64,000 bases of DNA from positions 29,360 to 93,359 of IMG/VR virus record IMGVR_UViG_3300021431_000096, one strand, 5' to 3'. Below are positions 42,454 to 61,617 of the stretch, piece after piece. Every line of letters starts with the position of its first letter. Position 1 is the stretch's first letter. Under the pieces are notes generated by a model that was not told the DNA's origin, did not search any database, and saw only the letters and a program-made list of their open reading frames with translations. Both the position numbers and the translations under genes were made by a program. This DNA is from a virus. Its lineage: Duplodnaviria > Caudoviricetes.

Positions 42454-42578
42454 CCACACAAGTGTATTAGCTTTGACATAAGCAAGTGTGCGACCAGCCG
42501 CGAGGCCCGCCGCACACGATTTTTCTTAATATATTATAAAAGGTGTGCCCGATGCTTGCAAGTTTCAGATATAATGCC

Positions 42579-42795
42579 TATCTTTGCAACGTCTAAATTC
42601 AAATGCGCGGCACAGAAGAAACAAACGAAGCCGCGACGAGCGGCATTTTTTGTGCCCTTAATGGAAGGAGTCGGGAGACTCATATATATAAACAGAACTG
42701 CACCGCGTCGGGTCACTGGATAACACCCCGAAGGCATCAGCGCATTTGAGCCTTGACAGCGCGTAGTGCAGTTTATTTTGTCTAAATTCAAATGC
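42579..42795 (+). ncRNA. CI/c4-like regulatory RNA leader 1
   Basis: TATCTTTG promoter; GTCTAAATTCAAATGC at 42591 and 42780; internal complement GCGCATTTGAG..TTGAC 42740-42757; closing stem 42696-42703/42766-42773. Confidence 0.65.
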
Positions 42796-42929
42796 AAACA
42801 ACAACTACCAACGTCCGCGCGACCTACCCTATCTTCATGGAGATAGCCCGTCGCCGCCAGTCCATCCGCAGGGTGCTCAGCCGCCTGACAGCCCCGCAAG
42901 TGATTAACCCTAACGACGCTGCCTTATGA
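42792..42929 (+). CDS. 45-aa leader-proximal ORF (Icd/Kil-like position)
   Basis: MQTTTTNVRATYPIFMEIARRRQSIRRVLSRLTAPQVINPNDAAL*; ATG lies inside the downstream repeat. Confidence 0.5.
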   Translation: MQTTTTNVRATYPIFMEIARRRQSIRRVLSRLTAPQVINPNDAAL

Positions 42930-43072
42930 ACCGCTCCGACATTGATCCCGAGATGCAGGAGCTGATGGCACTGCTCTCTAAGGCCGTCGTGCCGCGCCAC
43001 CGCCGCAAGGCCGCAGTGAGAACCAACTACCACGCGCCGTACTACTCACCGAGCAGATACAGCAGAATTTAA
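42926..43072 (+). CDS. 48-aa translationally coupled ORF
   Basis: ATGA overlap; MNRSDIDPEMQELMALLSKAVVPRHRRK... Confidence 0.45.
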   Translation: MNRSDIDPEMQELMALLSKAVVPRHRRKAAVRTNYHAPYYSPSRYSRI

Positions 43073-43085
43073 AACCGCAGAGATT

Positions 43086-45089
43086 ATGAAGTTCGTATCA
43101 GTCAAGGATAGTGCCATTGCCCAATATTGGGACTATGAGCATAACACCGCCGACCCCGCCACTGTGGCGAGCAAGAGCGGCAAGAAGTTCTGGTGGATAT
43201 GCCCTGAGTGCCATCAGCCGCATGAGAAAGTGGCGCAGAGTCAGCACAAGTCGCCTCTCTGCCGCAAGTGTGGCCAAAGGAAAGGTGTCTCTAATGGTTA
43301 TAAGTCGAGGATTGCAAAGACTCACAGTGTAGCCGATGATCCCGTTCTTATCAAATATTGGGATTACGAGCGGAATACCGTCAGCCCATCAGATATTACA
43401 TATAAAAGCACAAAGAAATATTGGTGGATATGCGCTCAGTGCGGTCGTCCCCATGAAAGGTCTGCCGGAAACGAGCAGAAGTCGCAGTTGTGCCGCAAAT
43501 GCGGATCTAAAAAAGGGATCGCAAATGGACAAAAGACTCACCTTTCAAAGACACTGACCGTAGCCGACGTGCCGCTGCTGCTGAACCAATGGGACTACGA
43601 TAAGAACCCCATGCCGCCATCCGAGGTGGCCAGCAAGTGCAATAAGAAATTCTGGTGGATATGCGCCGAATGCGGTGAGAGTTTTCAGCGCGGTGCTAAC
43701 CATGAGCACGAAACACAACTCTGTCGGACATGTGGTCTAAAACATCGCACAGAAAACAACAAGACCGCAAAACTTGCAAAATCGCACAGTATTGCTGATG
43801 ACCCTATCCAGTCTAAATGCTGGGATTACGAGCGCAATACGGAAGACCCAAAAACTATCTCTTATAGGAACAATGGTTATTACTGGTGGAAGTGTCCCGA
43901 ATGCGGTCAGTCTTACAGACGGACGGCCAGCAACCAATATGCAAGCACTCATGTTTGCGATGATTGTGCCATGAAAATCAGAATGACATCACGTGCCGCC
44001 ACCAGAATGGAAAAGAGTGAAAAGGTTTCAGACCGCCCTAACATGTTGGCTCAATGGGATTATGACAAGAACGACATTAGCCCTGATAAGGTATTGGCGT
44101 TTAGCAGCGATATGTATTGGTGGAAATGCCCTCGCTGCGGTAAGTCTGATTTTAATACGCCTAAGCATAAATACGAAGCAAAACTATGCAAGAAGTGCGC
44201 CTCCATAGAAGGCGGAAAAAAACATCGGGAAAGTGAAGTCAAGCGCAAAGGTTCTTTTGGCGACCAACATCCGCTCTTGGCAAAAGAGTGGCACCCAACA
44301 CTCAACGGTGACGTGACCCCTTATGACATCACCTCCGGTTGTGGAGACAATTTCTATTGGCAATGTAAGTACGGACATGTCTTTCAGACAAGCCCGAGTG
44401 AGCGTGTCAAGCGTCATGCAGGCTGTCCTACCTGCCGTACATCGCTCCGCACATCATTCACCGAGCAGGCTATCGCTTTCTACCTGTCGAAGGTGGTAGA
44501 AGTCAATCAGCACTTTAAGCAGGGTGGTTTTAATTTTGATATATTCATTGATCCATTCAAGACCGTTGTGGAGTACGACGGAATGTTCTGGCATGCAAAG
44601 GCTGACACCGCCAATCGCGACGCCCGCAAAGACAAATACTGCAAGAAGCGCGGATGGCGTATCATCAGGGTGAAGGAGTCTGAGAAGATAAACAAGGTCG
44701 AGGGTAATCATATCTACGCCCAGCGGCGCAACACCGACTATGTGTGGCTGATTAACCAGGTATGCAGCTTGCTCGGCGTGCTACCGCCTATCGACATCAA
44801 CATTGAGCGCGATACACCTGAAATCTACGCAAGGGTGAATCCCGTCGCCAAGGACGGCTCTTTGGCCGATAAGAAGCCCGAACTATTAAAGTATTGGGAT
44901 AAGGAAGCCAATCTGCCCGTAACGCCTGATATGGTGACGCCGTTCAGCCATCTTGCGTTCTCATGGCATTGTCCAGACTGCGGCCACGAATGGACGCAGC
45001 GGTTAATAGAAATATCCAACAGGAAGGTAAAATGTCCTCAGTGCCGTGAAAAGGCTTTTGCCAAGAAAGGACTAAAATCCAACGGATAA
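43086..45089 (+). CDS. Multi-zinc-ribbon (DUF4379-like) protein with DUF559/PD-(D/E)XK-like endonuclease domain
   Basis: Repeated WDYExN...WWxCxxC...CxxC units; FDIFI...VEYDGMFWH...D..KD.YC...GWRIIRVKE. Confidence 0.8.
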   Translation: MKFVSVKDSAIAQYWDYEHNTADPATVASKSGKKFWWICPECHQPHEKVAQSQHKSPLCRKCGQRKGVSNGYKSRIAKTHSVADDPVLIKYWDYERNTVSPSDITYKSTKKYWWICAQCGRPHERSAGNEQKSQLCRKCGSKKGIANGQKTHLSKTLTVADVPLLLNQWDYDKNPMPPSEVASKCNKKFWWICAECGESFQRGANHEHETQLCRTCGLKHRTENNKTAKLAKSHSIADDPIQSKCWDYERNTEDPKTISYRNNGYYWWKCPECGQSYRRTASNQYASTHVCDDCAMKIRMTSRAATRMEKSEKVSDRPNMLAQWDYDKNDISPDKVLAFSSDMYWWKCPRCGKSDFNTPKHKYEAKLCKKCASIEGGKKHRESEVKRKGSFGDQHPLLAKEWHPTLNGDVTPYDITSGCGDNFYWQCKYGHVFQTSPSERVKRHAGCPTCRTSLRTSFTEQAIAFYLSKVVEVNQHFKQGGFNFDIFIDPFKTVVEYDGMFWHAKADTANRDARKDKYCKKRGWRIIRVKESEKINKVEGNHIYAQRRNTDYVWLINQVCSLLGVLPPIDINIERDTPEIYARVNPVAKDGSLADKKPELLKYWDKEANLPVTPDMVTPFSHLAFSWHCPDCGHEWTQRLIEISNRKVKCPQCREKAFAKKGLKSNG

Positions 45090-45094
45090 TATAT

Positions 45095-45132
45095 AAAAAG
45101 GAGAGACCGCCGCAAGGTAGCCTCTCCTTTTT
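45095..45132. terminator. Bidirectional terminator
   Basis: AAAAAGGAGAG...CTCTCCTTTTT between convergent genes. Confidence 0.65.
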
Positions 45133-45165
45133 CGTGTATAGTAACCAATGAAAAAACTTTCTTTC

Positions 45166-45723
45166 CTATTTTCCTTCAAACATCCGCATAGCGTTCTGCA
45201 CGTCGAGGTCCACTGTCAGACCCTCTGTAACAGCCACCTTAATCTGTTCGCCGTAAGCCATACATAAATAATTGGAAATCCTACTGCAAAGGTGGTTAAC
45301 CTCTCTACGGATGAAAGGTCTGTGACTTCGCCCGGCTGAGCGATCCCAACTACTGATATACCGCTGGTCGAAGTGGGCATTCTTTGAACGCTCAACGGCT
45401 TCTGCAGTCACGCCGCTACCAACTCCTAATTCCGCAAACCGCATATATCGGTTAAAACTGTAAGTAAGATAGATATTATCAATCTCATCTGCAGCCTTGA
45501 TGAAACCCTTGAACGACCGCACACCGCGACCTGTGGAGTACCAGCCGCCCTGACGCTTGCGCATTGCATTTACTTTCTTATAGCCAGGGTACACCTCGAC
45601 GGGGAACACGTGCTGTGTGGCAGCGCCTATCTCCAGCATTTCGAGTGTGTCTTTATGAAACTGCGTGATGACGCGCCGTAATTCCATCGGCGGCGTGATT
45701 ACAGGGTCGATTTTCTTTGCCAT
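45166..45723 (-). CDS. Putative neck/tail component (HK97 gp10-like)
   Basis: STGRGVRS...YMRFAELGVG...HRPFIR pattern; own GTCCCA promoter. Confidence 0.55.
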   Translation of the reverse strand: MAKKIDPVITPPMELRRVITQFHKDTLEMLEIGAATQHVFPVEVYPGYKKVNAMRKRQGGWYSTGRGVRSFKGFIKAADEIDNIYLTYSFNRYMRFAELGVGSGVTAEAVERSKNAHFDQRYISSWDRSAGRSHRPFIRREVNHLCSRISNYLCMAYGEQIKVAVTEGLTVDLDVQNAMRMFEGK

Positions 45724-45750
45724 ATCCGTTTCGTTTAAATGTTCATAGCG

Positions 45751-45834
45751 CAAAGATAAAACCTTTTTTCTCCAAAATGGGACATGCGAAAACAACCTAT
45801 GTCCCAAATTAGTACAAACACTTCATTACCTTTG
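45751..45834. promoter_or_regulatory. Divergent phage-type promoter pair
   Basis: CAAAGATA 45751-45758 -N19- TGGGAC 45778-45783; GTCCCA 45801-45806 -N20- TACCTTTG 45827-45834. Confidence 0.75.
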
Positions 45835-45865
45835 ACGAAAGAAACAATAAAACAACGCAAGAACT

Positions 45866-48800
45866 ATGGCAAGAGGAGATACGGCACAAGCCAAAATCAA
45901 CGTGACTACCAACGCACAGGCGGCCAAGAACGACATTGAGGACATCAATAATCTGCTAAAGAAACTTCAGAAGACAAAACAGATGATGATGAAGGAAGGT
46001 CTGCACCTGACTGTCGACGGCAAGGAGACCGCGACCTTCAAGAAACTGAACCGCGACATCAAGGATGCCCAGCAGTCGCTCAAGCGTATGGTAGATTCGC
46101 AGACGCTGATGAACAAGACGATGGATAACCTGAAGGATATCCGTCTGAAAGAACTGAAGCGCCGCTACCGTGAACTGACCAAGGAACTCGGCAACTTCAC
46201 AGGTCGCGAGAAGCAGGCATCGAAGCAGTGGCGCGACAACCTTGAGAAGATCAAGGCGCAGATTTCTGCCATCGAGGGTGCGGGCAAAGGTGCGTCGAAG
46301 AGTTTTATGTCTTTTGGCGGCTCTTTAAAGACCACGATGAAGAACCTCGTGGCCTATGCGGGCGTGTTTGCCATGTTCAATCGAACCAAAGAAAAACTGT
46401 CGGAAATCGTAAAGCTCAACAAAGAATTTAGCGATCAACTTGCGAATATCCGTAAGGTCAGCAATTTGCCGATGGATTCCATCAACGCACTGGCCACAAA
46501 CCTTGCAAAGATTGATACCCGCTCCAGTGTGCAACAGCTGAACGAACTGGCCTATACAGGTGCAAAACTTGGCTTCGGAACTCTTGGAACCGATGCGCTT
46601 GAGGGATTTGTAAAAAGTGCCGTGGTCGTTCAAAATGCACTCTCAGAAGATATGGGGGCAGATGCCATGACCGCCCTGTCGAAGATGGTGGAGGTGATGG
46701 GACTGATACCGAAACTCGGTGTCGAGAAAGCCATGAACTCCGTCGGCTCGGCTATCTTCAAACTTGCATCCACCTCTACCGCCACGGGTACGAACATCGT
46801 GGAGTTCTCAAAACGACTGATGGGACTTGCTAATCAGGCGGGAATTACCGCTGACGAGCTGTTGGCCATTGGCTCCGCCGCCGACTCAATGGCTTTGATG
46901 CCCGAGGTGGCAGCTACAGCCTTCAATAAGTTGATTACCTCCGTACAGAAGCAGCCCAACCTGATAGAGAATGCACTCCATATTGAGCCAGGCACTATCA
47001 GTCAGATGTATCAGGCAGGCAAGATGACCGATGCGCTGGTGCTGATATTCGACAAGATGCGTGAGAAAGGCGGCATGAATGCTCTGATGCAGTCTGGTGT
47101 GTTCAAAGACCTCGGTTCCGACGGTGCCCGACTGGTGGCTGTGATGGCCACGATGTCAAACCGTGTGGATATGCTGAAAGAGCACCTTGAGACTGCCCGC
47201 GACGCTTTTGCCGAGGGAACAGCGGTAGGTCAGGAATACGCTATCCAGATGGAGACAGCCGAAGCCTACTCTGAGCGAGCCGCTAACATGTGGACCAAGG
47301 CGTTTGTCAACCCCGAGGGTGTCAATGTCGTCAAATCGCTTACAAAGGCGTGGTATGATATGACCGTACAGCTCACGCAGTCTGAGTCGGTGATGACCTC
47401 CGCCAAATTCCTGCTCGAAGGACTTGTTAGTGTCCTCAAGGTATTTATATCCATTCTGCCAGGACTGCTGACAAGCCTTGCAGCCTTCAGTGGTATCAAG
47501 GGACTGATGATGCTCTACAATTCGCTGTTCGCTGTCGAAGGAATGACTATCCGCACCATGCTGTCGCTCAGAGGTCTCGGACTGATGATGAAGACCAACT
47601 GGGTAGGTTGGGTGGTTACGGCCATCGGTGTACTGGGACAGTTCGTATTCTCCCTTGCAGCAGCCAAGGACAAGATGGACGAGGCGCGGGGGGCTATGCC
47701 TGGATTCAAGCGCGACCTCGGCGACCTGAATGTGGCCTTCGGTGCTGCGGCATCCGAAGCAGGCAGATTCCGTGATGCTATCCTCGCAGCTGAGAAAGGC
47801 ACTAAGGAGCGTGCAGCAGCCATCCGTAACTTTAAGCAGCAGTACGGTCAGTACCTCTCACAGATGATAACCGAGGAGAGCAGTGCCTATGCCATTGCCA
47901 AAGCCTATAACGAGGTGACGAAAGCCCTGCGTGCAAAGATTGCCCTCCAGATGAAGGAAGAGGACATCAGCAATCAGGTGGCACCCCGTGAGGGATGGGC
48001 AGCACAGCGCCGCGAGGAATACAACAAATACATGGGGCAGAGCCAATATAACGGCGCATGGCTGACGGGCGTTGTCAACGATGCACTTGCCAAGGGTACA
48101 TCTATCAAAGACCTCGCCAAGCAGCTTAACGCAAAAGCCTTCCACCTGTCCGACGAGATAGTGGAGAATGCCTTGAAACAGAGTGCCAGCGGCACCTATA
48201 AAGATATAAAAGGTGTAACCACAGAGAATGGTGATATCTTCCGTCAGCTTAACGGTCAGAATTTGTGGCGTGCTCTCCGCTATGCCACCCAGTCGTATTC
48301 TGCCAATACGGCTCTAAACCGCGTGAATGAAAAATGGAAGCCCGAGCAAGACTTGATTAATGAGACCCTCGCCAAGCAAGGTGAGAAAGAAGTGATGGAT
48401 CCGCTACTCGATGCTCCTGATAAAGCGGCTGAGCGTGCTGCACGCAAGGCGGCGCAAGATCACAAGCAGGCGATTCGCAAGGACTTGCAGGACGCGAAGC
48501 AGGAGTCGGATGCCATCATCGCGAAGATTGAGGAGTGGTACCGGCTGCAGGAGACGGTGGTGACGGGATTCGCCGCCGACGGGAAGTGGACGCAGCAGCA
48601 GGCGGAGATGGTGAACCGCGAACTGGAGGCCGCGAAGAACGAGGCGCTGGCCAACGCCCGACTGGCTATCAGTGGGCGCGACACCCAGACGTGGGAGCAG
48701 ACCAAGGAGAGCCTGCGCGTGATGATGTTCGACACGGGCGAGTGGTCGCAAGAGCTCTTCCAGCAGATATTGGACGTTTCGATGTCCGCCATCAGCAACA

Positions 48801-50830: not shown

Positions 50831-50876
50831 GGCGGCTATATAATATATATAAAGGTATAAAGAGAAAGGGTGGCGA

Positions 50877-51467
50877 CTAATTGTCTCCACCCTTTTTCAG
50901 TAGCGGCTCCACCTCGCTCCAAGGCGCCAGTTCCATATCGTTGGTCTCGGGGTCGAACCACCCCACGGCGATGAGTTTGGCGGCGGCGTCGGTGGTGTCC
51001 TGGACGATGAAGAACTCGAAGGGTTCGACCTTCGGCGGTTCAATGTCGCTCTCGGCTACTTGTTGGCGGGCGGCAAGGCGGATGCGCTCGATGTCGGCTC
51101 TCGACAAATGCGCTTGTTCAGACCCCCTCTGGCTCCCCCTAACTTCGGGGGAGAAGCCTGCGGCGGCTTTGCGCACGGCGGCGAGTTCTTCTTTGAGAAA
51201 GTGGGCGTTCCATGCCTCCTGCGCCTGCTGGTAGTAGAGCCACTGATAGACGTTGGTGACGAAGTTGACCCAACTCTCGGCATCCTTCATCATCAGCACA
51301 GCCAACGACTGACTGATGAAAAGTCGGCGCTGTTTCTGGTCCCAGACGAGCAAGCCCGACTGTTCGAGGCGGTCGAGGGTGGAGAACGTGCTGCTGAACT
51401 GTTTCAGTTCCTTCAGCTTCTTGCGCTGCTCGCGGCGCTTCTTTGAAAAATACGTGAAAATGCTCAT
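50877..51467 (-). CDS. Hypothetical protein
   Basis: ORF; contains a short REP-like insertion (SPEVRGSQRGSE). Confidence 0.6.
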   Translation of the reverse strand: MSIFTYFSKKRREQRKKLKELKQFSSTFSTLDRLEQSGLLVWDQKQRRLFISQSLAVLMMKDAESWVNFVTNVYQWLYYQQAQEAWNAHFLKEELAAVRKAAAGFSPEVRGSQRGSEQAHLSRADIERIRLAARQQVAESDIEPPKVEPFEFFIVQDTTDAAAKLIAVGWFDPETNDMELAPWSEVEPLLKKGGDN

Positions 51468-51588
51468 AAATCTGTTGTTTTTAAGTGCCCTGTGGGCAAA
51501 AATTATTCTTAGAATTATGTTCTTATAATTATTCTGATGAATTTTAACTTTTTAATTTTAAGATAAATTTTTCGCGTCAGCGACTTCC

Positions 51589-52740
51589 TTACTTATGCTT
51601 CCTTCGGATCTTCTCCATCTCCTCCGCTTCTACCGCCATGTCGTTCAGGTGGCGCAGGATGGCGTGGGCGGTCTGGCTGTTGATCTCATCCTCGGTCAGT
51701 CCGCCGAGGTATTTCTGTAAAGTGGCCATCGAGCGAGTGTAGAGTTCGATGGGCAGCGGTGTCGATTTCGAGCGGCTGCGCGGCTTCTTGTCGGAGGACT
51801 TGAAGCACTTCGGATATTGTTCTTTCAGGTACTGCATCATGCTCGACCACCAGAACATGATGACCTGCCATTCAACCTCCGAGATGCGGGCGAGGCGGAT
51901 GCGCCACTTCGGACAGCCGAACACCAGCGACAGCACCGTCTGTCGGATATCGCGCTCCTGACTGGCAAGTGTCACAATGGGGTCTGGCATTTGCTGTGAT
52001 GTCGCAGATGTCACAGAAGTGCCTGACCCCAGTGTGATGAGCCGACCGCAGATGCGACCGAACCGCGACCGCTTTCCGACATTCGGTCGTGGTTTCTCCC
52101 GCTCCGCCACCAGCGCATTCGCCGTGTTCGTGTACGCCTCCATCCAGTCGTTGATCCAGCGGTAGGTCTGCCACGTCATGCCGTCCATCAGTTCGCCTGG
52201 CGCATAGTAGTCGCGCTTCCACAGCGGCCACCAGCGGCGCAGTCTCGTCGGGTACGGCCACATCAGTTTCGGCATCGGCAGCGCACGGCCCTTGCCGTCG
52301 GTCGCGTCGAGCCACGCCAGCTGCTCCATGAACGAATGCACCTGCCAGGTCTGCAACTCGAACGTCTCCTTGCCGAGCGACGGGTGGCGGCAGACGAAGG
52401 ACACTGTGGGGACTGTCCCCTCTGTGCTATCTGTGATGGCACTACGGGGACTGTCCCTATCTGTGTCCTTGTCGCTCGGCGACATCATCACACTGGGGTC
52501 AGACCCCGCTGATACCGTCGAAGATAGCACATCAGGGTCAGACCCCATTGTGACGATTTCCACTCCGCTGAAGCGGAAGAACAGCCGCGTCTTGATTTCG
52601 GTCCAGTCGAAGGGATGGAACCGCGACAGGCTGGCCATCATCTGACTGCGGATCATCTCCTCGGCAATCATCTCCAGCTCCCGTGTCGAGCACTGCGCCC
52701 AACCCTTCGGCACTTTCAAGTCTAAATGAATCAGTTTCAT
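51589..52740 (-). CDS. Hypothetical late protein (possible tail assembly chaperone)
   Basis: VPKGWAQC start, own GTCCCA promoter, palindromic in-frame insertions. Confidence 0.55.
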   Translation of the reverse strand: MKLIHLDLKVPKGWAQCSTRELEMIAEEMIRSQMMASLSRFHPFDWTEIKTRLFFRFSGVEIVTMGSDPDVLSSTVSAGSDPSVMMSPSDKDTDRDSPRSAITDSTEGTVPTVSFVCRHPSLGKETFELQTWQVHSFMEQLAWLDATDGKGRALPMPKLMWPYPTRLRRWWPLWKRDYYAPGELMDGMTWQTYRWINDWMEAYTNTANALVAEREKPRPNVGKRSRFGRICGRLITLGSGTSVTSATSQQMPDPIVTLASQERDIRQTVLSLVFGCPKWRIRLARISEVEWQVIMFWWSSMMQYLKEQYPKCFKSSDKKPRSRSKSTPLPIELYTRSMATLQKYLGGLTEDEINSQTAHAILRHLNDMAVEAEEMEKIRRKHK

Positions 52741-52757
52741 ATCGCCTTTGTTTTCCG

Positions 52758-52791
52758 CAAAGGTAATACCGACCTTTCGACGAAATGGGAC
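52758..52791 (-). promoter_or_regulatory. Phage-type promoter GTCCCA-N20-TACCTTTG
   Basis: CAAAGGTA 52758-52765, TGGGAC 52786-52791. Confidence 0.75.
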
Positions 52792-52861
52792 TATCTTGAC
52801 AGATAATCGTTAAATTTATAAAATAAAAAGCCACATCCTTGCACATCCAAAATATTCTTCT

Positions 52862-52992
52862 TATCTTTGCACCGTTCAAATAATTACATAATGTATAATC
52901 AGAAATACAAGACTGCACCGTGCGGGGTATGGGACAACCACCCCAAGGTTGTTGCATTATGCGACCTGAACAGCGCGTAGTGCAGTCTTTTG
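52862..52992 (+). ncRNA. CI/c4-like regulatory RNA leader 2
   Basis: TATCTTTG promoter; GTTCA..CATAATG 52874-52893 complementary to CATTATG..TGAAC 52955-52971; stem GACTGCAC/GTGCAGTC followed by a T-tract. Confidence 0.6.
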
Positions 52993-53002
52993 TTTTTGAA
53001 GT

Positions 53003-54337
53003 ATGGCAAAAAGAAAACTTTTCTCAGACGATGACCTTGCCAAGATTGCGTCAGGGTATGATGACTTGTGCGAGTTCCGCAAGAATGAGCCGTCGGCTTA
53101 CGTTGTAATTCATCGGCGCGGGCTATTTGATAAGCTCTGCGGACACATGACCCGTCGCGTCCGCAGGCTGTCTGACGACGAATTGGCAGAGATTGCAAGT
53201 GGCTACGATTATAAGAAGGATTTTCTTCATGGCGACATGGCCGCATATAACACGGCAAAGTCACGCGGCATATTTGAGAAGATTTGTGCCCACATGAAAG
53301 AATACCGAACTCCTTCAGGATATTGGATTAAGGAAAGATGTCACAAAGAAGCATTGAAATATGATAGTCGCATGGGGTTTTGTAATGGCAACCCTGGTGC
53401 ATACGGCGCAGCTCAGTCCCACGGATGGCTCGACGAGGTATGCAGCCACATGAAACCGCAGGGTAACTGGACGAAGCGTAAAATCTATGTGTTCACTTTC
53501 TCCGACGGCTATGCCTATGTCGGATTGACCAATAATATCAAGAGCCGTCTCTCGCAGCACCTCTCCAAGAAGAAACGGTCGCCAGTATGTAAGCACATTC
53601 AAGAGACGGGGGCATCGTTCGAGTTCAAAATCCTTACTGATGAATGGATTGACATGGATGTGGCAGGCAGAGTGGAAGATCAATACATCAGCCAATATGC
53701 AGACGACGGTTGGAAGATGCTCAATAAGAGAGGTGGCGGCCTTGGCAGTCCAAAGCACACCTACTACACCCCAAACCGTCTGCGACGCGAGGTGTCAAAA
53801 TATGAATACTTGCATGATTTCCGCGAGAAATCTCCACAATATTACAGTTACATGCTTGCTCACGGGCTAATTGATGAATATTGCTGTGGGTTGAAGCGCG
53901 ACTTGAAACCGCAAGGATTTTGGACGCTTGAACGTGCGATTGCCGTTGTGCCTGAGTGTAAGTCGCGCCGCGAGCTTGCGTCAAAATACTATCAGGCTTA
54001 TGTCTTAATCAAAGATGCTGGTCTGCTGACAAAGTATTATCCCAACAAGGTAGTATCGAAGAAAAAGATTTGGACCTTGGAGAAGAGCCTTGAAGTAATA
54101 CCTCTTTGTAAATCTCGCAAGGAGTTGCAGAAGAAGTATAGCAAGGCTTACGATACCCTACTGAAGGCTGGAAGGCTTGATGAGTTTTACCCTTTGAAAT
54201 GCAAAAAATACACCGACGAGGAGAAGGCAGCGGCTATTGCTGAGTGCAAGTCCCGCACGGAGTTACATGACCGCTATCCTGCCGTCTATAAGTGGCTGCT
54301 CCGTGAGGGACGTATGGACGAGTTCTTCCCTAAGTAA
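53003..54337 (+). CDS. Free-standing GIY-YIG homing-type endonuclease with helical repeats
   Basis: KIYVFTFSDGYAYVGLT..R..QH...E...LN; flanking W/Y-TxE...C.SR.EL repeats; abuts the terminase stop. Confidence 0.8.
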   Translation: MAKRKLFSDDDLAKIASGYDDLCEFRKNEPSAYVVIHRRGLFDKLCGHMTRRVRRLSDDELAEIASGYDYKKDFLHGDMAAYNTAKSRGIFEKICAHMKEYRTPSGYWIKERCHKEALKYDSRMGFCNGNPGAYGAAQSHGWLDEVCSHMKPQGNWTKRKIYVFTFSDGYAYVGLTNNIKSRLSQHLSKKKRSPVCKHIQETGASFEFKILTDEWIDMDVAGRVEDQYISQYADDGWKMLNKRGGGLGSPKHTYYTPNRLRREVSKYEYLHDFREKSPQYYSYMLAHGLIDEYCCGLKRDLKPQGFWTLERAIAVVPECKSRRELASKYYQAYVLIKDAGLLTKYYPNKVVSKKKIWTLEKSLEVIPLCKSRKELQKKYSKAYDTLLKAGRLDEFYPLKCKKYTDEEKAAAIAECKSRTELHDRYPAVYKWLLREGRMDEFFPK

Positions 54338-54338
54338 C

Positions 54339-56336: not shown

Positions 56337-56380
56337 AATAATATGTTAGTCTGTTACTGTGTCTTTATCTGTTCTTCTGC

Positions 56381-56734
56381 CTAAGCCTTCCTGATGGCGA
56401 AGATGCAGGGCTTGCCCGTCACGCTGACCTGCATACGGAATCCTTTCATCTTCAGGTCGTCGATATACAGTTTCAGCGGGTCGCCCAGTCCGCACACGTA
56501 TGCCTTGAAGTAAGAGCGCAGCCGTGCGTCGTCGAACGTCTCCACATACTCGCTCGTATCGTCCATCCCCTGCGGTGCGGGAGCGTAGGTACTGATGAAA
56601 GCCGACACCTTCTCGTCGATCTTGAAGTCCGAGAGGCTCACCTTCGCCACCTCCACCTCCGGCTGCAGGTCGCTCACGTCGGGCGCATCCTCCCAGTCGT
56701 CCCAGTCCTGCTGTTTCTTTTTCTTTTTTGTCAT
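56381..56734 (-). CDS. Hypothetical protein
   Basis: ORF in the packaging operon. Confidence 0.6.
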   Translation of the reverse strand: MTKKKKKQQDWDDWEDAPDVSDLQPEVEVAKVSLSDFKIDEKVSAFISTYAPAPQGMDDTSEYVETFDDARLRSYFKAYVCGLGDPLKLYIDDLKMKGFRMQVSVTGKPCIFAIRKA

Positions 56735-56865
56735 AATATCCCTGCTTTATAGCCGCCCCTTATCAAGGGGCTCAAAATATTTTTCTTTTTTCTGCCCATA
56801 AGAAAATCCGTTTAATCCGTGAAATCCGTGTTCAAAAAAACTCTGTATCTCTGTGTCTCTGTGTT

Positions 56866-57597
56866 TCAAATATTCTCGTCGAAGATGTCGGGCTTCTCTT
56901 CATCGTCGTCCACGGACTGCCATACGCCGTTGATTTCCTCCATCTCCTGCGTCAACTCCCGCTCTGTTAATCCGTACTTTTTCCGCAGCCTTTCTTTTTC
57001 AGCATCCGGCAGGCTTTGTCTGTCGCTCTTCACGACTGACACGTCACCTGTGATGTTGATGTTCGTGTTCGGCATCTGCTCCTGCGGGTCGTCGTCGTCC
57101 TTGAAGTCGTTGTGCAGCTTGAACATCTCCTGGTTGGCCTCCTTCACCGCCTGCCACGTGCCCGTCTGTCGGCCATATTCGCTCAGCCACTCCACGTTTG
57201 CCTCTACCATCGCCAGGTGGATATGCTTCTTCGATGTGTTCAGCCGCGCTAATAATTGATTTACGAGCCAGATATCATTTGAGATGTTTGTTTCGCTTCT
57301 GAGCGATATCGCCCCCGTCTCGGGATGCCGATGCACCCCCAGCGCCTGTGCCATCTCAATGCTCGCCTGATTGCCCATGTCGGCACAGTCCATCAGCTGC
57401 TTGTAGTCCCGCGCAGCGATATTCTTCACGATGGTGCGTATCGGCGTCGCCGGATTGTTCATAAACACGCGGTAGCACTCCAGGCACATCTGCGCCCTGA
57501 ACTTCTGTTCCAGCGTCATATTCATCCGCTCGATGGCCACGCCGCCGTGCGTCCACGCCACCACCTTCTCCAGATAACTCTGTGACAGTTGACTCAT
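56866..57597 (-). CDS. Putative terminase small subunit
   Basis: First gene of the operon containing terL, ~243 aa, helical; assigned by synteny only. Confidence 0.5.
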   Translation of the reverse strand: MSQLSQSYLEKVVAWTHGGVAIERMNMTLEQKFRAQMCLECYRVFMNNPATPIRTIVKNIAARDYKQLMDCADMGNQASIEMAQALGVHRHPETGAISLRSETNISNDIWLVNQLLARLNTSKKHIHLAMVEANVEWLSEYGRQTGTWQAVKEANQEMFKLHNDFKDDDDPQEQMPNTNINITGDVSVVKSDRQSLPDAEKERLRKKYGLTERELTQEMEEINGVWQSVDDDEEKPDIFDENI

Positions 57598-57625
57598 AAT
57601 CTCGTTTCGTTTTTGATTTCTATTG

Positions 57626-57708
57626 CAAATATAGGCATCAGCCGATGGCAAAATGGGACTACTTTGGCCAACAAGTCCCATTTCGGCGAAGGACCGATAG
57701 TAATTTTG
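57626..57708. promoter_or_regulatory. Divergent phage-type promoter pair
   Basis: CAAATATA 57626-57633 -N20- TGGGAC 57654-57659; GTCCCA 57675-57680 -N20- TAATTTTG 57701-57708. Confidence 0.75.
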
Positions 57709-57712
57709 CAGT

Positions 57713-57988
57713 ATGGAAGATACAAGACTAAAGATGATGATGCTCGACATTGACGGCATCCTGACGCGCCACGAGGCCACGGCGACCGACGTGCTGGCGG
57801 CGGCGCAACAGCTGGCCGTGAGTGCCGTGGGCGACATCACTAATAAGTCCCTTGCGGCCACGGGCGGCGATGCGGAAGCGTCGAAAGACCAGACCGATGC
57901 CCTGCACCGCGCTGCCGATGCCATCGCCGAGCAGATCCGCGCCGCGCTGCACAAGCGCATAGACGAAGGCGAGCGCCCCGACTGGTAA
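57713..57988 (+). CDS. Small helical hypothetical protein (nearly leaderless if 57713 is the start)
   Basis: Starts directly after the -7 box. Confidence 0.5.
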   Translation: MEDTRLKMMMLDIDGILTRHEATATDVLAAAQQLAVSAVGDITNKSLAATGGDAEASKDQTDALHRAADAIAEQIRAALHKRIDEGERPDW

Positions 57989-58189
57989 AAAAGGCCGCAA
58001 GGTAAATTTTCCCGACAATCGGCGAATGTGTCAAGATTTAATCATTAGCAAACAATTCGCAAACTGTTTGTACCCAATCCCGAGATTGTTTGTACCCGAT
58101 GCGAAAACCGTCTGCTGACGATGACTACAAAAAAGGCAACGCGACGCCTCAGAAGTTCGCAAGTATTAACAAAATGGTTTTTCAACATT

Positions 58190-58693
58190 ATGTCAGATCT
58201 CAGACTGAAAATTAAGAAGACCGTCCTCAAGCGCAAGCTGGAGGGTGCGACCGTGACAGGCTACTACGGGCGCGTGATCACCAACGGCAAGAAGTCGTTC
58301 GACGAAATCGCCCGCTCATCGGCCAAGAACACGACTCTCCACCCGAAGGAAGCCTCACTGGCTGCCGAACTGCTGCTGGAGGGAGTAGCCGAAGAGCTGA
58401 AGCAGGGTTTCATCGTTGACCTCGGCCCACTCGGCACTATCTATCCCGCAGTCAACTCGCCCTGGAAGCAGGACCCCGAGGAACTTTCTCTCTCAGAGAT
58501 GAAGCCCAAGGTGAACTACTCCAGCAGCCGTGGCATCAGCGCCGCCATCAAGGGAGCCGACCTCGCCTGGGCCACCGCCAAAGACGAGGCAGAAGGCACC
58601 GAGACGCCCGATGACGAGGACAACAACGACGTCACCCCCGGCGACGGAGGCAACGGTGGCAACACCGACGGTGACGAGAATCTGGAGGGTTAA
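58190..58693 (+). CDS. HU/IHF-related DNA-binding protein
   Basis: YYGRV...SFDEIA...EELKQGFIVDLGPLGTIYP; G/D tail ending LEG; TGTTTGTACCC twice at 22-bp spacing upstream (58065, 58087). Confidence 0.75.
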   Translation: MSDLRLKIKKTVLKRKLEGATVTGYYGRVITNGKKSFDEIARSSAKNTTLHPKEASLAAELLLEGVAEELKQGFIVDLGPLGTIYPAVNSPWKQDPEELSLSEMKPKVNYSSSRGISAAIKGADLAWATAKDEAEGTETPDDEDNNDVTPGDGGNGGNTDGDENLEG

Positions 58694-58727
58694 TATCATT
58701 CCCTCTCTGTGGATCGTCAATCTAACC

Positions 58728-58769
58728 AAAGCCCGCTGCAAGACTTCGAGAGCCTGCGGCGGGCTTTTT
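58728..58769 (+). terminator. Rho-independent terminator
   Basis: AAAGCCCGCTGCA...TGCGGCGGGCTTTTT. Confidence 0.75.
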
Positions 58770-59037
58770 CTGTGCGCCAGCCGACAAAAAATCATGGCTC
58801 ACCCGTAAGGGCAAAGGCTCCGTGAGCCATACCAAAACTCTGAAAATCGGCGGTCTCTGCGATTTTCAGTTAAGTCCTTCCATATAGGGAAGGATTTAGG
58901 TTAGGTGGATGCTTCTTTCGTTCTTTCTTCGCGCCGAAGAAAGGACAGGGAAACCGTAGGGCTCGCAGCCCTACAAAAAAGGGCAGCACCCTTTCGGCTG
59001 CCACCCGACCTGAAGCCTCATGCTATGATTGCATGCC

Positions 59038-59766
59038 TTATTTCCTTTTATACCAGCAGAAGAGCGAGCTGCCCGTGTTCATGTCGAAGAAGAACATGCC
59101 GCCTCTATTGGTGAAGGCGTAGTAGAACGACTCCCGCTTGCCGTTCAGGAACTTCTCAAACGTGATTGTTCCCCTCGATGCCGTGTAGTTCGTTTTCACC
59201 TCCAGACCGCTGCCCTCTTCTCCGCTCAGCGTGGCAGTGCCGTCGCTTGCCAAGTCGGCGTAGTATTTAGGTTTCACGCTGATGCCTAACCCTTCTGGGT
59301 AGTAGTCCGTCCGCCAGCTGCCGCAGACGCCGTTGTCGTGGGTTCCGGCATTAGTCGGATCGGTGAATCCGAATACCGTATTGTAAATCACGGGCTCTCC
59401 CGTGGACACATTCCACAGAATGCCTTTGTCGTCGATTCTGATTTTCTCAGGCACGTTTCTCCGCGCAGCCGACTGACCGATATTGTTGGCCAGTAAGACG
59501 GTGGTGAGTTCGTCGCCTACGGCATTCCATGTCCCGACAGCCACAAAGTCGTCGAAGCCGCCCATCATGCCGCCCGACAGTTTTGCCTCGTCCATTTCAA
59601 ACAGGAACGATCCGTTTCTGTAGAAATACACATCCCCTTCCTTGGTGGAATACATGCTGCCGGTGAAGTAGCCTTCTGCGCTACCTGCCGAACTGCTGTC
59701 ATCACTGCTGCAGGCCGTCAGGCCGCAGATTAACACACTCATTAGTGCAAATAACATTTTCTTCAT
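59038..59766 (-). CDS. Lipoprotein (candidate superinfection-exclusion protein)
   Basis: MKK-hydrophobic-LTAC lipobox followed by SSDD, a Bacteroidetes surface-export-like signal. Confidence 0.7.
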   Translation of the reverse strand: MKKMLFALMSVLICGLTACSSDDSSSAGSAEGYFTGSMYSTKEGDVYFYRNGSFLFEMDEAKLSGGMMGGFDDFVAVGTWNAVGDELTTVLLANNIGQSAARRNVPEKIRIDDKGILWNVSTGEPVIYNTVFGFTDPTNAGTHDNGVCGSWRTDYYPEGLGISVKPKYYADLASDGTATLSGEEGSGLEVKTNYTASRGTITFEKFLNGKRESFYYAFTNRGGMFFFDMNTGSSLFCWYKRK

Positions 59767-59817
59767 ATCGCCAAAAAATTTATAAGGTTAAACAAATGCC
59801 TACCTTTATATTATATA

Positions 59818-60120
59818 TCACTCAGCCGACTTGAACGTGATTTCGGCCACGAGCGGCTTGCCGCAGTGAGGACAGACGGCCACTTTGTCGCCCTGCTGCT
59901 CCTGACGGACTGCGCCATTAGCCTTTTCCTCTTCCGTTGGCGGGTCGAACAACTCCGTGACGTGACAACCTATCCCCTCCGCTATCTTATAAAGCACCTG
60001 CACCGACGGATTGCCGTTGACGTGATATGATAATGTAATGGGACTAATGTTCATATTCTCTGCCACCTTTTTTGATGTAAGGTGGTATTTCTTGATTGCT
60101 GCTTTAATGTTTAATGCCAT
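59818..60120 (-). CDS. XRE/Cro-CI HTH regulator with C-terminal CPHCG zinc knuckle
   Basis: KKVAENMNISPITLS...NPS...L.KIA..IG...ELF; divergent promoter arrangement. Confidence 0.85.
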   Translation of the reverse strand: MALNIKAAIKKYHLTSKKVAENMNISPITLSYHVNGNPSVQVLYKIAEGIGCHVTELFDPPTEEEKANGAVRQEQQGDKVAVCPHCGKPLVAEITFKSAE

Positions 60121-60252
60121 AATACTAATATTTTTGTGCAAAGTTAAGCCATTTTTTTGAGAAAACCATAACTTTTCGGCAAAAAATAGTTAAAAACAAG
60201 GAAAATATTTCATTTTTGGCTTAATTTTCTTGTGGAATTCGGAAATTTGGCT

Positions 60253-60477
60253 TATCTTTGCAGCGTCAAATTCAATCAGCGGCGGAAATGTCGCAGTCAA
60301 AAGCGGCATTTTTCTATGCCATCATCATCTTGGGAGAGTGCTTTGGCACTCATAGAAGTAACTGACCGCACAGCGTGGGCGCTCTTAACTGAGCATGCGA
60401 AAGCACCCGGGCATTCGCTGATTGAAGCCTGACAGCGCTTAGTGCGGTCTTTTTATGTTTTGTCAAATTCAATCAGT
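60253..60477 (+). ncRNA. CI/c4-like regulatory RNA leader 3
   Basis: TATCTTTG promoter; GTCAAATTCAATCAG at 60265 and 60462; complement CGCTGATTGAA..TGAC 60416-60433; stem GACCGCAC/GTGCGGTC. Confidence 0.65.
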
Positions 60478-60478
60478 T

Positions 60479-60628
60479 ATGAAGCAATTCAGAGTGACCT
60501 ACACCTTAAACGGTGTGAAATCGGTGCCGATCGACACGTCAAGTCCCGTCGCCGTAGTCGAGAACCTTTCACGCATCGCCATGCTCTCCGGGCTGGTGAT
60601 TGCAAGTCTGACCACTAAACTGTTATGA
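60479..60628 (+). CDS. 49-aa leader-proximal ORF (not in ORF track)
   Basis: MKQFRVTYTLNGVKSVPIDTSSPVAVVENLSRIAMLSGLVIASLTTKLL*; ATGA-coupled to the next ORF. Confidence 0.5.
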   Translation: MKQFRVTYTLNGVKSVPIDTSSPVAVVENLSRIAMLSGLVIASLTTKLL

Positions 60629-60807
60629 GCATGAGCAGACGAAGAACTATCCGTATCGTCGGTAGCAACAACATCGTTGGCAACACCGACACCAGCGTCT
60701 GCAGCAGCGGCATCGTCAGTGCGCTCACGGCGCAGCTGGCCGCAAAGGACAGCCAGATTGCCCGCCTCATGCAGACCATCAGCGAATTAATGAACATGAT
60801 AAAGTGA
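60625..60807 (+). CDS. 60-aa coiled-coil peptide
   Basis: LAAKDSQIARLM heptads; coupled to the HNH gene. Confidence 0.5.
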   Translation: MSMSRRRTIRIVGSNNIVGNTDTSVCSSGIVSALTAQLAAKDSQIARLMQTISELMNMIK

Positions 60808-61298
60808 TGAACTGGCCAGGACTTTTGCGCGAATACCTGTACGTCTGTACCCAATTCGTATGGAAGTGCCTCATGCGGGCACTCCATACGGAGCACAGAT
60901 GGCTGGTGTGGCAGCTGAAGCTGTGGCGGTTCCGCCTTTACTTCACCAACGTTGACATGAGACCGACGGGACCGAAGCACAAATACAGGTCGCCGTACCG
61001 CCAGCAGAAGAAGGCCATCAGGAGGCAGGCGGTGAAGAAGCGCCACAGGCTCTACCGCGAGGCGGGCGGCAAGTGCCAGCTGTGCCACTGCAAGGTGTCG
61101 GGTCGCAAGGTGCAGATCCACCACGTGCTGCCCATCGACCACTTCCCCGAGCTGGGTGCCGACATGCGCAACCTCATGGTGGTCTGTCCCGCCTGCCACC
61201 AGGAGATCCACCAGAACCCCTTCCTCAACGCCCGCCTTATCAAGCAGCGTGCAAGAAAGATGGGCGTGAAATATAAGAAAGTATATAGTAGAATGTAA
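60804..61298 (+). CDS. HNH endonuclease
   Basis: CQLC...IHHVLP...NLMVVCPACHQEIH. Confidence 0.85.
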   Translation: MMNWPGLLREYLYVCTQFVWKCLMRALHTEHRWLVWQLKLWRFRLYFTNVDMRPTGPKHKYRSPYRQQKKAIRRQAVKKRHRLYREAGGKCQLCHCKVSGRKVQIHHVLPIDHFPELGADMRNLMVVCPACHQEIHQNPFLNARLIKQRARKMGVKYKKVYSRM

Positions 61299-61311: not shown

Positions 61312-61617
61312 ATGAGCAACAAGAAGATCGTAATGGACGAACAGCAGTTCAGAAATAAGGTATGGCTTATGCAGGGCGACGCGATAGACTTTTCGCCTTC
61401 GCAGTATAAAGGCGAAGACCAGCCTATCATTGTGGCATGTGCTCGCGACTCGTTGACATTTGCCGTTGAACGGGCGTCAGACCTGTACGACGATGTTCAC
61501 CCTGCTGAGTGCCCGCTTTGCAGGGAGCGCAGACTGCACCAGCAGCGCATGGATGCCATTCGCCGCAGAGAAGCTCTCAGAGTAGCAGATGCAAAGGAAT
61601 TGTTGAATCTCATATAA
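61312..61617 (+). CDS. Hypothetical (CPLC)
   Basis: ORF in the operon with HNH and TnpB. Confidence 0.55.
   Translation: MSNKKIVMDEQQFRNKVWLMQGDAIDFSPSQYKGEDQPIIVACARDSLTFAVERASDLYDDVHPAECPLCRERRLHQQRMDAIRRREALRVADAKELLNLI

What the first reader, a model, noticed from the sequence alone, without database searches (positions are those of the whole stretch)
42579..60628. Three CI/c4-like antisense-switch RNA leaders with different specificities, each ahead of an endonuclease unit
Seen: the elements at 42579-42795, 52862-52992 and 60253-60477 share a host-type promoter and a closing stem with covariation (ACTGCAC/GTGCAGT versus ACCGCAC/GTGCGGT). They also share a TGA(A)CAGCGC.TAGTGC 3' motif and an internal segment complementary to the transcript's 5' end. 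The recognition sequence differs in each (TTCAAATGC, CATAATG, TTCAATCAG). In copies 1 and 3 the 15-16-nt 5' target is repeated exactly at or just before the start codon of the first small ORF. A second ATGA-coupled small ORF and then a nuclease (Zn-ribbon/DUF559-like, HNH) follow. Copy 2 precedes the GIY-YIG gene directly. Known: P4 CI RNA (seqA-seqB-seqC) and P1/P7 c4 RNA (targets a1b1/a2b2) use this upstream-target / internal-antisense / downstream-target layout to control kil/icd and ant. Inference: a Bacteroidales analogue, diversified into orthogonal versions that restrain toxic nucleases or give immunity specificity.
Basis: partly seen in the sequence, partly recalled or inferred. Interest (0 to 1): 0.78.

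Follow-up and report, generated by a model that had tools for sequence, protein, structure and literature searches.

The report
Three c4-2 antisense RNA switches
A 93-kb phage of Prevotella-type bacteria carries three copies of a catalogued small antisense RNA (Rfam c4-2, kin of the phage P1 c4 and P4 CI immunity RNAs), each with a different address and each in front of a homing-endonuclease-type gene: a real, neatly built switch of a known kind.

Summary
All three elements match Rfam c4-2 (RF02944, c4 antisense clan). Copy 2 scores above the gathering score; copies 1 and 3 score below it. A covariance model built without any window sequence still scores them 85.7, 83.4 and 48.7 bits, and nothing else in the 93-kb phage matches.

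About 35 related loci from IMG/VR phages and Prevotellaceae genomes share one layout:
- a Bacteroidota-type promoter;
- a 5' leader with a bipartite target (box A GUC(U)AA/GUUCA, box B variable);
- a leader hairpin plus U-run;
- the c4-2 three-way junction ending in a stem plus U-run;
- a second bipartite target at the start codon of a small ORF.

The hairpin-2 loop covaries with box B, and the junction strand covaries with box A, at both sites. This is the P4 seqA–CI–seqC and P1 a1b1–c4–a2b2 design.

I infer two effects of pairing. At the leader it favours the terminator over a competing helix, giving self-limiting attenuation. At the start codon it blocks translation of the small ORFs and the coupled nuclease gene.

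Copy 2 is a stripped version with no attenuator and no downstream target.

The record has no integrase or antirepressor, so "immunity" is unsupported here. Cargo is mostly homing-endonuclease-type genes.

The scan has found c4-2 switches before on other DNA. Verdict: new members of a known kind.

The parts
42556..42586 (+). Module 1 promoter: -33 TTG and -7 TATCTTTG, Bacteroidota type
   Evidence: The consensus is from established knowledge (TAnnTTTG/TTTG, Bayley et al. 2000).
42591..42608 (+). Module 1 leader target: box A GTCTAA, then box B TCAAATGCGC
   Evidence: (pair I3, 10 of 10 complementary)
42607..42651 (+). Module 1 leader switch. Region 1 GCGGCA overlaps box B. Region 2 is GCCGC. 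Region 3 is GCGGCA followed by a T-run, forming an intrinsic-terminator-like hairpin at 42630-42644.
42696..42777 (+). c4-2 RNA copy 1. The hairpin-2 loop antisense segment is 42740-42749 and junction strand J is 42753-42757.
   Evidence: 31.3 bits to RF02944; 83.4 bits to the leave-out model
42780..42795 (+). Module 1 downstream target (box A plus box B). It contains the ORF1 start codon at 42792-42794.
42792..43072 (+). Two ATGA-coupled small ORFs of 45 and 48 aa, conserved in L023 and L064
   Evidence: No Pfam or PHROG match.
43086..45089 (+). Nuclease cargo, 667 aa: seven DUF4379 zinc fingers plus a REase_MTES_1575/DUF559-like domain
   Evidence: phrog_559, phrog_3339 homing endonuclease
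52839..52869 (+). Module 2 promoter
52874..52893 (+). Module 2 short leader. Box A GTTCA is at 52874-52878 and the weak box B CATAATG at 52887-52893. The spacer is 8 nt rather than the usual 2-4 nt, and there is no terminator.
52911..52991 (+). c4-2 RNA copy 2
   Evidence: 45.4 bits, above gathering score 41; 85.7 bits
53003..54337 (+). GIY-YIG cargo, 444 aa. It starts 13 nt after the RNA and no antisense target precedes it.
   Evidence: 49% identical to the gene behind a complete module in L057
60230..60260 (+). Module 3 promoter
60265..60281 (+). Module 3 leader target: box A GTCA, then box B TTCAATCAGCG
   Evidence: pair I1, 11 of 11 complementary
60279..60313 (+). Module 3 leader switch: region 1 GCGGCG, region 2 TGTCGC, region 3 GCGGCA followed by T5
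60364..60453 (+). c4-2 RNA copy 3, with an enlarged hairpin 1. The loop antisense segment is 60416-60426.
   Evidence: 22.2 bits; 48.7 bits, E 1e-10
60462..60481 (+). Module 3 downstream target, followed by the ORF1 start codon at 60479-60481
60479..61298 (+). Coupled small ORFs (49 and 60 aa) and the HNH endonuclease (about 163 aa)
61312..63679 (+). Same-strand continuation of module 3: a 101-aa ORF and a 683-aa TnpB-like ORF. Whether they belong to the operon is inferred.

Best explanation
These are three paralogous c4-2 antisense-RNA modules built like the P4 seqA-CI-seqC and P1 a1b1-c4-a2b2 immunity units.

How each module is laid out (shown by sequence):
- A host-type promoter starts a transcript whose first ~20 nt form a bipartite target. 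Box A is conserved in type; box B is variable.
- In modules 1 and 3 the target runs into a short segment (region 1) that can pair with the 5' arm of an intrinsic-terminator hairpin.
- Downstream lies the ~80-nt c4-2 RNA. It is a three-way junction whose outer stem plus U-run also looks like a terminator.
- A second copy of the target follows, abutting or containing the start codon of a small ORF. That ORF is translationally coupled to a second small ORF and a nuclease gene.

Pairing (shown by covariation): the RNA's junction strand pairs with box A, and its hairpin-2 loop pairs with box B.

Mechanism (inferred):
- Once c4-2 RNA has accumulated, pairing at the leader removes region 1 from the anti-terminator helix. 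The leader terminator then forms, giving negative feedback on the whole unit.
- Pairing at the downstream site occludes the start region of ORF1. Through coupling, this silences the nuclease.

The three addresses differ, so the modules should act independently. Copy 2 has lost the attenuator, the small ORF and the downstream target.
For: Identity:
- RF02944 hits on all three copies.
- The leave-out covariance model R2 scores 85.7, 83.4 and 48.7 bits and finds no other hit in the window.
- The other model, R1, which includes the window's own copies, finds the same three places and no other hit in the whole genome.

Fold: compensatory changes in the outer stem and hairpin 1 across 34 sequences.

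Loop with box B:
- Cognate exact complementarity averages 10.1 nt (minimum 8) at the leader and 7.6 nt downstream. Non-cognate pairs average 4.6 and 4.4 nt (27 loops).
- Duplex energies are -16.9 versus -7.7 kcal/mol at the leader and -10.7 versus -4.9 downstream. The cognate leader site is the best partner in 23 of 28 cases.

Junction with box A:
- Matched variants seen are UGAC/GUCA, UUGAC/GUCAA, UUAGAC/GUCUAA, UGAAC/GUUCA, UUGAAC/GUUCAA, UUAAC/GUUAA and UUGUC/GACAA.
- The match is exact at the leader in 25 of 29 loci. Permuted pairings give 10.8 on average and never more than 19.

Target uniqueness: in the 93-kb genome the only strong bipartite sites are each copy's own two sites.

Attenuator:
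- A hairpin plus U-run is found in 26 of 27 distinct full-length leaders.
- Region 1 resembles region 3 in several different sequence versions: GCGGCA, UGCGGU, GGGGC.
- In transcripts cut before region 3, the minimum-energy fold pairs region 2 with region 1 in 20 of 26 loci by an automatic criterion, against 37% when the upstream part is shuffled.

Precedent for such a leader: PMC4825925 describes IsrK/SeqA and P4 CI-dependent termination. PMC5320573 summarises the a'/b' loops of P1 c4 and its RNase P processing.
Against: - No expression data exist; every regulatory step is inferred.
- In most leaders the full-length minimum-energy fold already contains the terminator, whether or not the target is blocked. 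A clear thermodynamic switch appears only in L035, L092 and L093.
- The shuffled control for the anti-terminator helix is high, at 37%.
- The related loci are phylogenetically clustered, so permutation figures overstate independence.
- Copy 1's own box A (GUCUAA) does not match its junction strand (UUGAC) without a bulge.
- Copy 2 has only a 7-nt match and no downstream site.
- Downstream sites are short (6-10 nt).
Confidence: 0.75

Rival explanations
1. The leader is not an attenuator but a source of a short decoy or activator RNA, like IsrK or SeqA. Most transcripts would stop at the leader terminator. The short RNA carrying boxes A and B would titrate c4-2 RNA, or mask it in cis on read-through transcripts. 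It would thereby permit, rather than prevent, expression of the small ORFs and the nuclease.
For: - The terminator is in the minimum-energy fold of most free leaders.
- The leader site binds the loop more strongly than the downstream site (-16.9 versus -10.7 kcal/mol), as a sponge would.
- PMC4825925 shows a dual short and long isoform logic for IsrK.
- Copy 1's leader gives a weak isrK hit (12 bits, E 4.9).
Against: - The isrK hit is not significant.
- The conserved overlap of box B with region 1, and the likeness of region 1 to region 3, are what an antisense-controlled terminator needs and a simple sponge does not.
- The two roles are not mutually exclusive.
Confidence: 0.15
2. The RNAs act mainly in trans between genomes. 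They would be immunity or exclusion determinants that silence the matching module of a co-infecting or superinfecting relative. Diversification of addresses would then be driven by phage-phage conflict, as in P1/P7 heteroimmunity.
For: - Close relatives keep the scaffold and the small ORFs (82-96% identity by translated comparison) but differ in loop and both targets. The window's copy 1 and L023 are an example.
- Copy 2 is a promoter-driven RNA without its own downstream target.
- One relative (L011) has c4-2 before an ANT antirepressor and an integrase.
Against: - This record has no integrase, resolvase or ANT domain, so there is no sign of lysogeny.
- Each RNA's best targets are in its own unit.
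- No partner for copy 2's loop was found among the fetched loci beyond weak matches.
Confidence: 0.2
3. The complementarity carries no regulatory function. Either the 15-16-nt repeats are duplication scars of a mobile promoter-RNA-nuclease cassette, or the fold serves only as a terminator or processing signal.
For: - The repeats are exact in copies 1 and 3.
- Cassettes sit at synteny breakpoints, and the nuclease genes behind the same head are swapped between relatives.
Against: - In most relatives the two sites are not identical to each other, yet both still match the loop.
- The loop, the junction strand and both sites change together in more than 25 specificities. A duplication scar cannot explain that.
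Confidence: 0.04

Closest known systems
Rfam c4-2 RNA (RF02944, clan CL00128; Weinberg et al. 2017, PMC5737381)
   Same: - Same three-way-junction fold.
- Copy 2 scores over the curated cut-off, and copies 1 and 3 give sub-threshold hits over the full model length.
- The paper calls c4-2 a likely distant homologue of a previously described RNA.
   Different: - This Prevotellaceae-phage subgroup sits at the edge of the Rfam model. Five consensus positions are deleted and scores run 22-46 bits.
- The Rfam model covers only the RNA, not the leader, the targets or the terminator.
- The paper's supplement could not be read here, so I cannot say what its authors noted about targets.
P1/P7 immI: a1b1 - c4 RNA - a2b2 - icd - ant
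   Same: An RNA inside the operon has two antisense elements matching a repeated pair of boxes, one upstream and one downstream, and the downstream pair lies at the translation start of a small ORF. Address variation gives specificity (PMC5320573).
   Different: - Here one antisense element is a junction strand, not a hairpin loop.
- Bacteroidota lack a Shine-Dalgarno-dependent start, so the site covers the start region or codon.
- The cargo is nucleases, not icd-ant. No ANT domain is present in this genome.
- There are three units per genome.
Satellite phage P4 immunity (seqA - CI RNA - seqC) and Gifsy-1 IsrK/STnc1160
   Same: An upstream target in a leader that ends at a Rho-independent terminator, an RNA processed from or ending within the same transcript, and a downstream target. 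Antisense pairing causes premature termination (PMC4825925).
   Different: - No significant sequence or structure match to isrK (12 bits).
- The explicit competition of region 1:2 against region 2:3 is my inference.
- A different phylum and different cargo.
Antisense-RNA-driven transcription attenuation of plasmid rep genes (pT181, pIP501/pAMbeta1; from my own knowledge)
   Same: Binding of a small RNA to a nascent leader shifts folding from an anti-terminator (pre-emptor) to a terminator.
   Different: Those RNAs are cis-encoded on the opposite strand. Here the RNA is encoded downstream on the same strand and also has a second, translational target.

Membership tests
Rfam c4-2 (RF02944) | Covariance-model score at or above the curated gathering score (41 bits) - copy 2 | tested here: met
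   45.4 bits, E 1.3e-6, model positions 1-79
Rfam c4-2 (RF02944) | Covariance-model score at or above the gathering score - copies 1 and 3 | tested here: not met
   31.3 bits (E 1e-4 in 501 nt) and 22.2 bits (E 0.04). I file them as sub-threshold paralogues of copy 2. A model built without window sequences scores them 83.4 and 48.7 bits.
Rfam c4-2 (RF02944) | Three-way junction (outer stem, inner helix, two hairpins) kept by compensatory changes | tested here: met
   7 of 19 predicted pairs have changes on both sides, and the outer stem shows 2-4 pair types at three positions. Single-sequence folds agree.
P1/P7 c4 immI system | Two antisense elements matching repeated boxes upstream and downstream of the RNA | tested here: met
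   Loop with box B. Junction strand with box A. Copy 2 has only the upstream site, and weakly.
P1/P7 c4 immI system | Downstream box at the translation start of a small ORF, giving a translational block | tested here: inconclusive
   The position is right: the ATG lies inside the site (copy 1) or 2 nt after it (copy 3), and about 2-11 nt after it in about 28 relatives. The block itself cannot be tested here.
P1/P7 c4 immI system | Cargo icd plus antirepressor (ant) | tested here: not met
   No ANT domain in the 93-kb record. The cargo is nucleases. The ANT arrangement is present in relative L011.
P1/P7 c4 and P4 CI | 5' end made by RNase P processing of a longer transcript | not testable with these tools
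   Known for P1 c4 (PMC5320573). It needs RNA end mapping.
P4 immunity (seqA-CI-seqC) / IsrK | Leader carrying the upstream target and ending at a Rho-independent terminator | tested here: met
   Modules 1 and 3, and 26 of 27 distinct full-length leaders, have a hairpin plus U-run. Module 2 lacks it.
P4 immunity (seqA-CI-seqC) / IsrK | Match to the isrK/SeqA RNA family (RF01394) | tested here: inconclusive
   12 bits, E 4.9 for copy 1's leader, mostly from the terminator. Copy 3 gives no hit.
P4 immunity (seqA-CI-seqC) / IsrK | Antisense-dependent premature transcription termination | not testable with these tools
   Only the alternative pairing is shown computationally.

The most novel reading that the evidence does not exclude
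In these Prevotella phages the c4-2 switch may have been taken over as a portable governor for selfish nuclease cassettes. A conserved head (promoter, attenuating leader, RNA, one or two small ORFs) would be retained while different homing-endonuclease-type or TnpB genes are swapped in behind it. Up to three non-cross-pairing heads coexist in one apparently non-temperate genome. Addresses would diversify by coordinated change of four sites. Control would combine antisense-triggered leader termination with start-site occlusion, in a phylum without Hfq or Shine-Dalgarno-dependent initiation.
Probability: 0.35. Interest if true: 0.6.

Novelty: new member of a known kind. Interest (0 to 1): 0.4.

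Why it matters
c4-2 is catalogued only from comparative genomics. No work on it in Bacteroidota turned up in the literature searches made here.

The window and its relatives give a ready-made set of more than 25 natural address variants with matched targets. That set amounts to a design table for non-cross-reacting RNA repressors in Bacteroidota, where such tools are scarce.

They also offer a testable case of antisense-controlled attenuation plus translational block in a phylum with unusual translation initiation.

The link to homing-endonuclease cassettes suggests how such phages keep selfish nucleases quiet. None of this changes the picture of how c4/CI-type switches work.

Tried and rejected
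- A fourth weak c4-2 hit at 58951-59008(-) (16 bits, E 2.3) lacks the outer stem. It is a pair of terminator-like hairpins after a minus-strand ORF. Rejected.
- Megablast of 42400-46000 against deposited phages found nothing.
- Trans targets elsewhere in the genome: 8-11-nt matches occur at chance frequency.
  - ATAATGCAA at the start codon of 38267-39049(-) and CATAATGCAA at 4350-4359(-) lack a proper box A.
  - A 13-of-15 look-alike of the copy-3 target near genome position 3520 lies antisense to a gene start.
  - All were judged chance.
- A MAFFT alignment of whole units (A3) was out of register in the variable parts. I therefore did not run the count of structure pairs on it and used register-free scripts instead.
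- Pfam and PHROGs gave nothing for any first small ORF.
- The supplement of Weinberg 2017 is not held.
- The first literature search on 'c4-2' returned only prostate-cancer cell-line papers.
- A group I intron, tRNA or tmRNA origin was considered. There are no tRNA or tmRNA genes and no Rfam family other than c4-2 scores above threshold.
Full report
**What is there**

The window is bases 29360-93359 of a 93,359-bp IMG/VR virus record rated 95% complete. A gathering-threshold Rfam scan of the whole window gives one hit: c4-2 (RF02944, clan CL00128) at 52911-52989, 45.4 bits against a cut-off of 41. Permissive scans of the other two regions give the same family over the full model length: 31.3 bits at 42696-42775 and 22.2 bits at 60364-60451. 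There are no tRNA or tmRNA genes.

I built a covariance model from 30 related sequences, with none from the window and none from its near-identical relative L064. It scores the three copies 85.7, 83.4 and 48.7 bits (E 3e-20 to 1e-10) and finds nothing else in the window. The other model, R1, which includes the window's own copies, finds the same three places and nothing more in the whole genome. A weak fourth candidate at 58951-59008(-) lacks the outer stem and is a pair of terminator-like hairpins.

**The observation**

- The 3' motif occurs exactly three times; shuffles give 0.17 on average.
- The promoter string TATCTTTGCAnCGT occurs three times without mismatch. A TTG lies 23 nt upstream in all three and in at least 70% of 27 distinct promoter regions, the window's three included. 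This fits the Bacteroidota -33/-7 consensus (my own knowledge).
- The 16-nt and 15-nt direct repeats and the 10-nt and 11-nt perfect inverted repeats between leader and hairpin-2 loop are confirmed.
- All three RNAs fold into the same three-way junction, better than any of 200 shuffles.

**Relatives**

Two pattern scans of IMG/VR and one of GTDB genomes, filtered for the 5' arm, gave 34 distinct sequences (the window's three included). Model searches added further copies. Hosts named in the genome records are Prevotellaceae MAGs from rumen-type samples, a Prevotella sp. and Hoylesella saccharolytica.

In an even sample of 151 genomes of that order, only 2 had an RF02944 match, so the element is sporadic, as expected for phage cargo. 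One to three copies per phage record is usual: G155 has 3, G156, G158 and G159 have 2, and G157 has 1. Tandem pairs occur in L070 and L117.

**Anatomy and covariation**

The RNA fold is supported by compensatory changes in the outer stem and hairpin 1. All units with a complete leader share the same order:
1. promoter;
2. box A (GUCA, GUCAA, GUCUAA, GUUCA, GUUCAA or GUUAA);
3. a 2-4-nt A/U spacer;
4. box B, which is variable;
5. a GC-rich segment;
6. a hairpin plus U-run;
7. the c4-2 RNA;
8. a U-run;
9. box A and box B again;
10. an ATG about 2-11 nt later.

The hairpin-2 loop is complementary to box B.
- Across 27 different loops, the cognate exact match averages 10.1 nt (minimum 8) at the leader and 7.6 nt downstream. 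Non-cognate pairs average 4.6 and 4.4 nt.
- Predicted duplex energies are -16.9 versus -7.7 kcal/mol at the leader and -10.7 versus -4.9 downstream. The cognate leader is the best partner in 23 of 28 cases.

The single-stranded junction between hairpin 2 and the inner helix is the reverse complement of box A, and the two change together, including an inserted or deleted base. In G155 there is an A/U swap at a position I had first taken as invariant. The match is exact at the leader in 25 of 29 loci and downstream in 17 of 29. Permuted pairings give means of 10.8 and 6.6.

The loci are related to one another, so these permutation figures overstate independence. At least five distinct compensatory types are nevertheless seen. 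Recognition is therefore bipartite, like a'/b' of P1 c4 (PMC5320573). In the 93-kb genome, the only strong bipartite sites for each RNA are its own two.

**Leader**

In modules 1 and 3, and in 26 of 27 distinct full-length leaders, box B runs directly into a short segment (region 1) that resembles the 3' arm (region 3) of a following hairpin plus U-run. Both can pair with the 5' arm (region 2). This holds in several different sequence versions: GCGGCA/GCCGC, UGCGGU/ACCGCA, CAGUGG/CCGCUGG and GGGGC/GCCCC.

When the transcript is cut before region 3, the minimum-energy fold pairs region 2 with region 1 in 20 of 26 loci by an automatic criterion. Most of the misses are cases where my script mis-set the arms. 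With the upstream part shuffled the figure is 37%. The last 2-6 nt of the loop:box B duplex overlap region 1.

I infer that bound c4-2 RNA prevents the 1:2 helix, so the 2:3 terminator forms. The evidence is moderate. In full-length leaders the terminator is already the minimum-energy fold in most loci, and an outright switch on blocking the target appears only in L035, L092 and L093.

The design matches what is described for P4 and proposed for Gifsy-1. In P4, CI RNA pairs with seqA and seqC and causes premature termination. For Gifsy-1 IsrK/STnc1160 a comparable role is suggested (PMC4825925). An isrK hit on copy 1's leader is not significant (12 bits, E 4.9).

**Cargo**

In the window:
- Module 1 carries 45-aa and 48-aa ORFs and a 667-aa protein with seven DUF4379 fingers plus an REase_MTES_1575/DUF559-like domain.
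- Module 2 carries a GIY-YIG protein.
- Module 3 carries 49-aa and 60-aa ORFs, an HNH endonuclease, a 101-aa ORF and a 683-aa TnpB-like protein.

Among relatives:
- 13 loci have a small ORF, then a NUMOD4/HNH_3/NUMOD1 endonuclease, then a ~200-aa ORF and the tape-measure gene.
- L057 has a 100-aa ORF, then a homologue of the window's GIY-YIG gene (49% identity).
- L035 has a TnpB-like gene.
- L011 has an ANT antirepressor followed by an integrase, the classical arrangement.
- L155 and L070 have no recognisable nuclease.

The nuclease link is therefore frequent and involves at least four unrelated nuclease families, but it is not universal.

Between the window and G156, the head (RNA plus small ORFs) is 93-96% identical in translated comparison. 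The flanks are 44-91% identical, and the nuclease gene is replaced by an unrelated one directly after ORF2. Between the window and L023, the small ORFs are kept while the loop and both targets differ.

No Phage_integrase, Resolvase or ANT domain is found in the record. Lysogenic immunity is therefore not supported for this phage.

**Copy 2**

This copy has a 39-nt leader with box A but no terminator. Its loop match is only 7 nt after an 8-nt spacer, and there is no target before the GIY-YIG start codon, which lies 13 nt after the RNA. The homologous position in G155 and the homologous cargo in L057 both carry complete modules. Copy 2 is therefore best read as a trimmed derivative.

Its loop has a 7-nt perfect match over the start codon of module 1's ORF1. 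That could be cross-talk or chance.

**Comparison and verdict**

It is not new as a kind, and the scan has met c4-2 switches on other DNA several times.

What this window adds:
- three non-cross-pairing modules in one apparently non-temperate phage;
- nuclease rather than antirepressor cargo;
- clear comparative support for bipartite recognition;
- a specific, testable attenuator model.

Noticed in passing
window 61628-63679 (+): A TnpB-like ORF of 683 aa (Cas12f1-like_TNB, OrfB_IS605 and HTH_OrfB_IS605 domains over residues 260-647) has an unexplained ~260-aa N-terminal extension. It lies at the end of module 3. A 43%-identical homologue lies behind another c4-2 in L035/G155.
   Followed up: partly
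window 45166-45807 (-): A conserved ORF (its start is probably at the internal Met, giving about 185 aa) lies between the module 1 nuclease and the tape-measure gene. It is on the opposite strand to the tape-measure gene here and in G156, but co-directional with it in G155. This points to a local inversion.
   Followed up: partly
window 50877-52991 compared with L187 6761-8681: The block of two minus-strand genes plus the copy-2-position c4-2 is inverted relative to the tape-measure gene in the related phage G155. c4-2 modules sit at synteny breakpoints, so the ~80-nt repeats could be recombination substrates.
   Followed up: partly
L187 8600-8681 with leader 8490-8515: In G155 the junction strand reads UUGUC and box A reads GACAA. 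This is a compensatory A/U swap at a position that is invariant in the pattern-selected set.
   Followed up: yes
window 60383-60392 and 60473-60482: Copy 3's enlarged hairpin 1 is 9 of 10 complementary to the stretch spanning the ORF1 start codon. It may be a third contact or chance.
   Followed up: no
window 52945-52957 and 42789-42805: Copy 2's loop has 7 perfect pairs (AAUGCAA), plus 4 more after a bulge, over the start codon of module 1's ORF1. The predicted duplex is -12.2 kcal/mol, stronger than with its own leader (-9.6).
   Followed up: partly
L070 3804-3883 and 4245-4324; L117 5467-5546 and 5908-5987: Tandem pairs of c4-2 RNAs lie about 440 nt apart in a phage contig and in a Prevotellaceae genome.
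   Followed up: no
G000 genome about 13.7-14.5 kb (outside the window): A NUMOD4/HNH_3 homing-endonuclease homologue of the cargo seen in 13 relatives is present in this phage with no c4-2 beside it.
   Followed up: no
window 53003-54337: The GIY-YIG protein carries many copies of a ~50-aa repeat (SGYD...F...Y......G......C.HM) on both sides of the catalytic domain. Its best family match is PHROG 20046, of unknown function.
   Followed up: no
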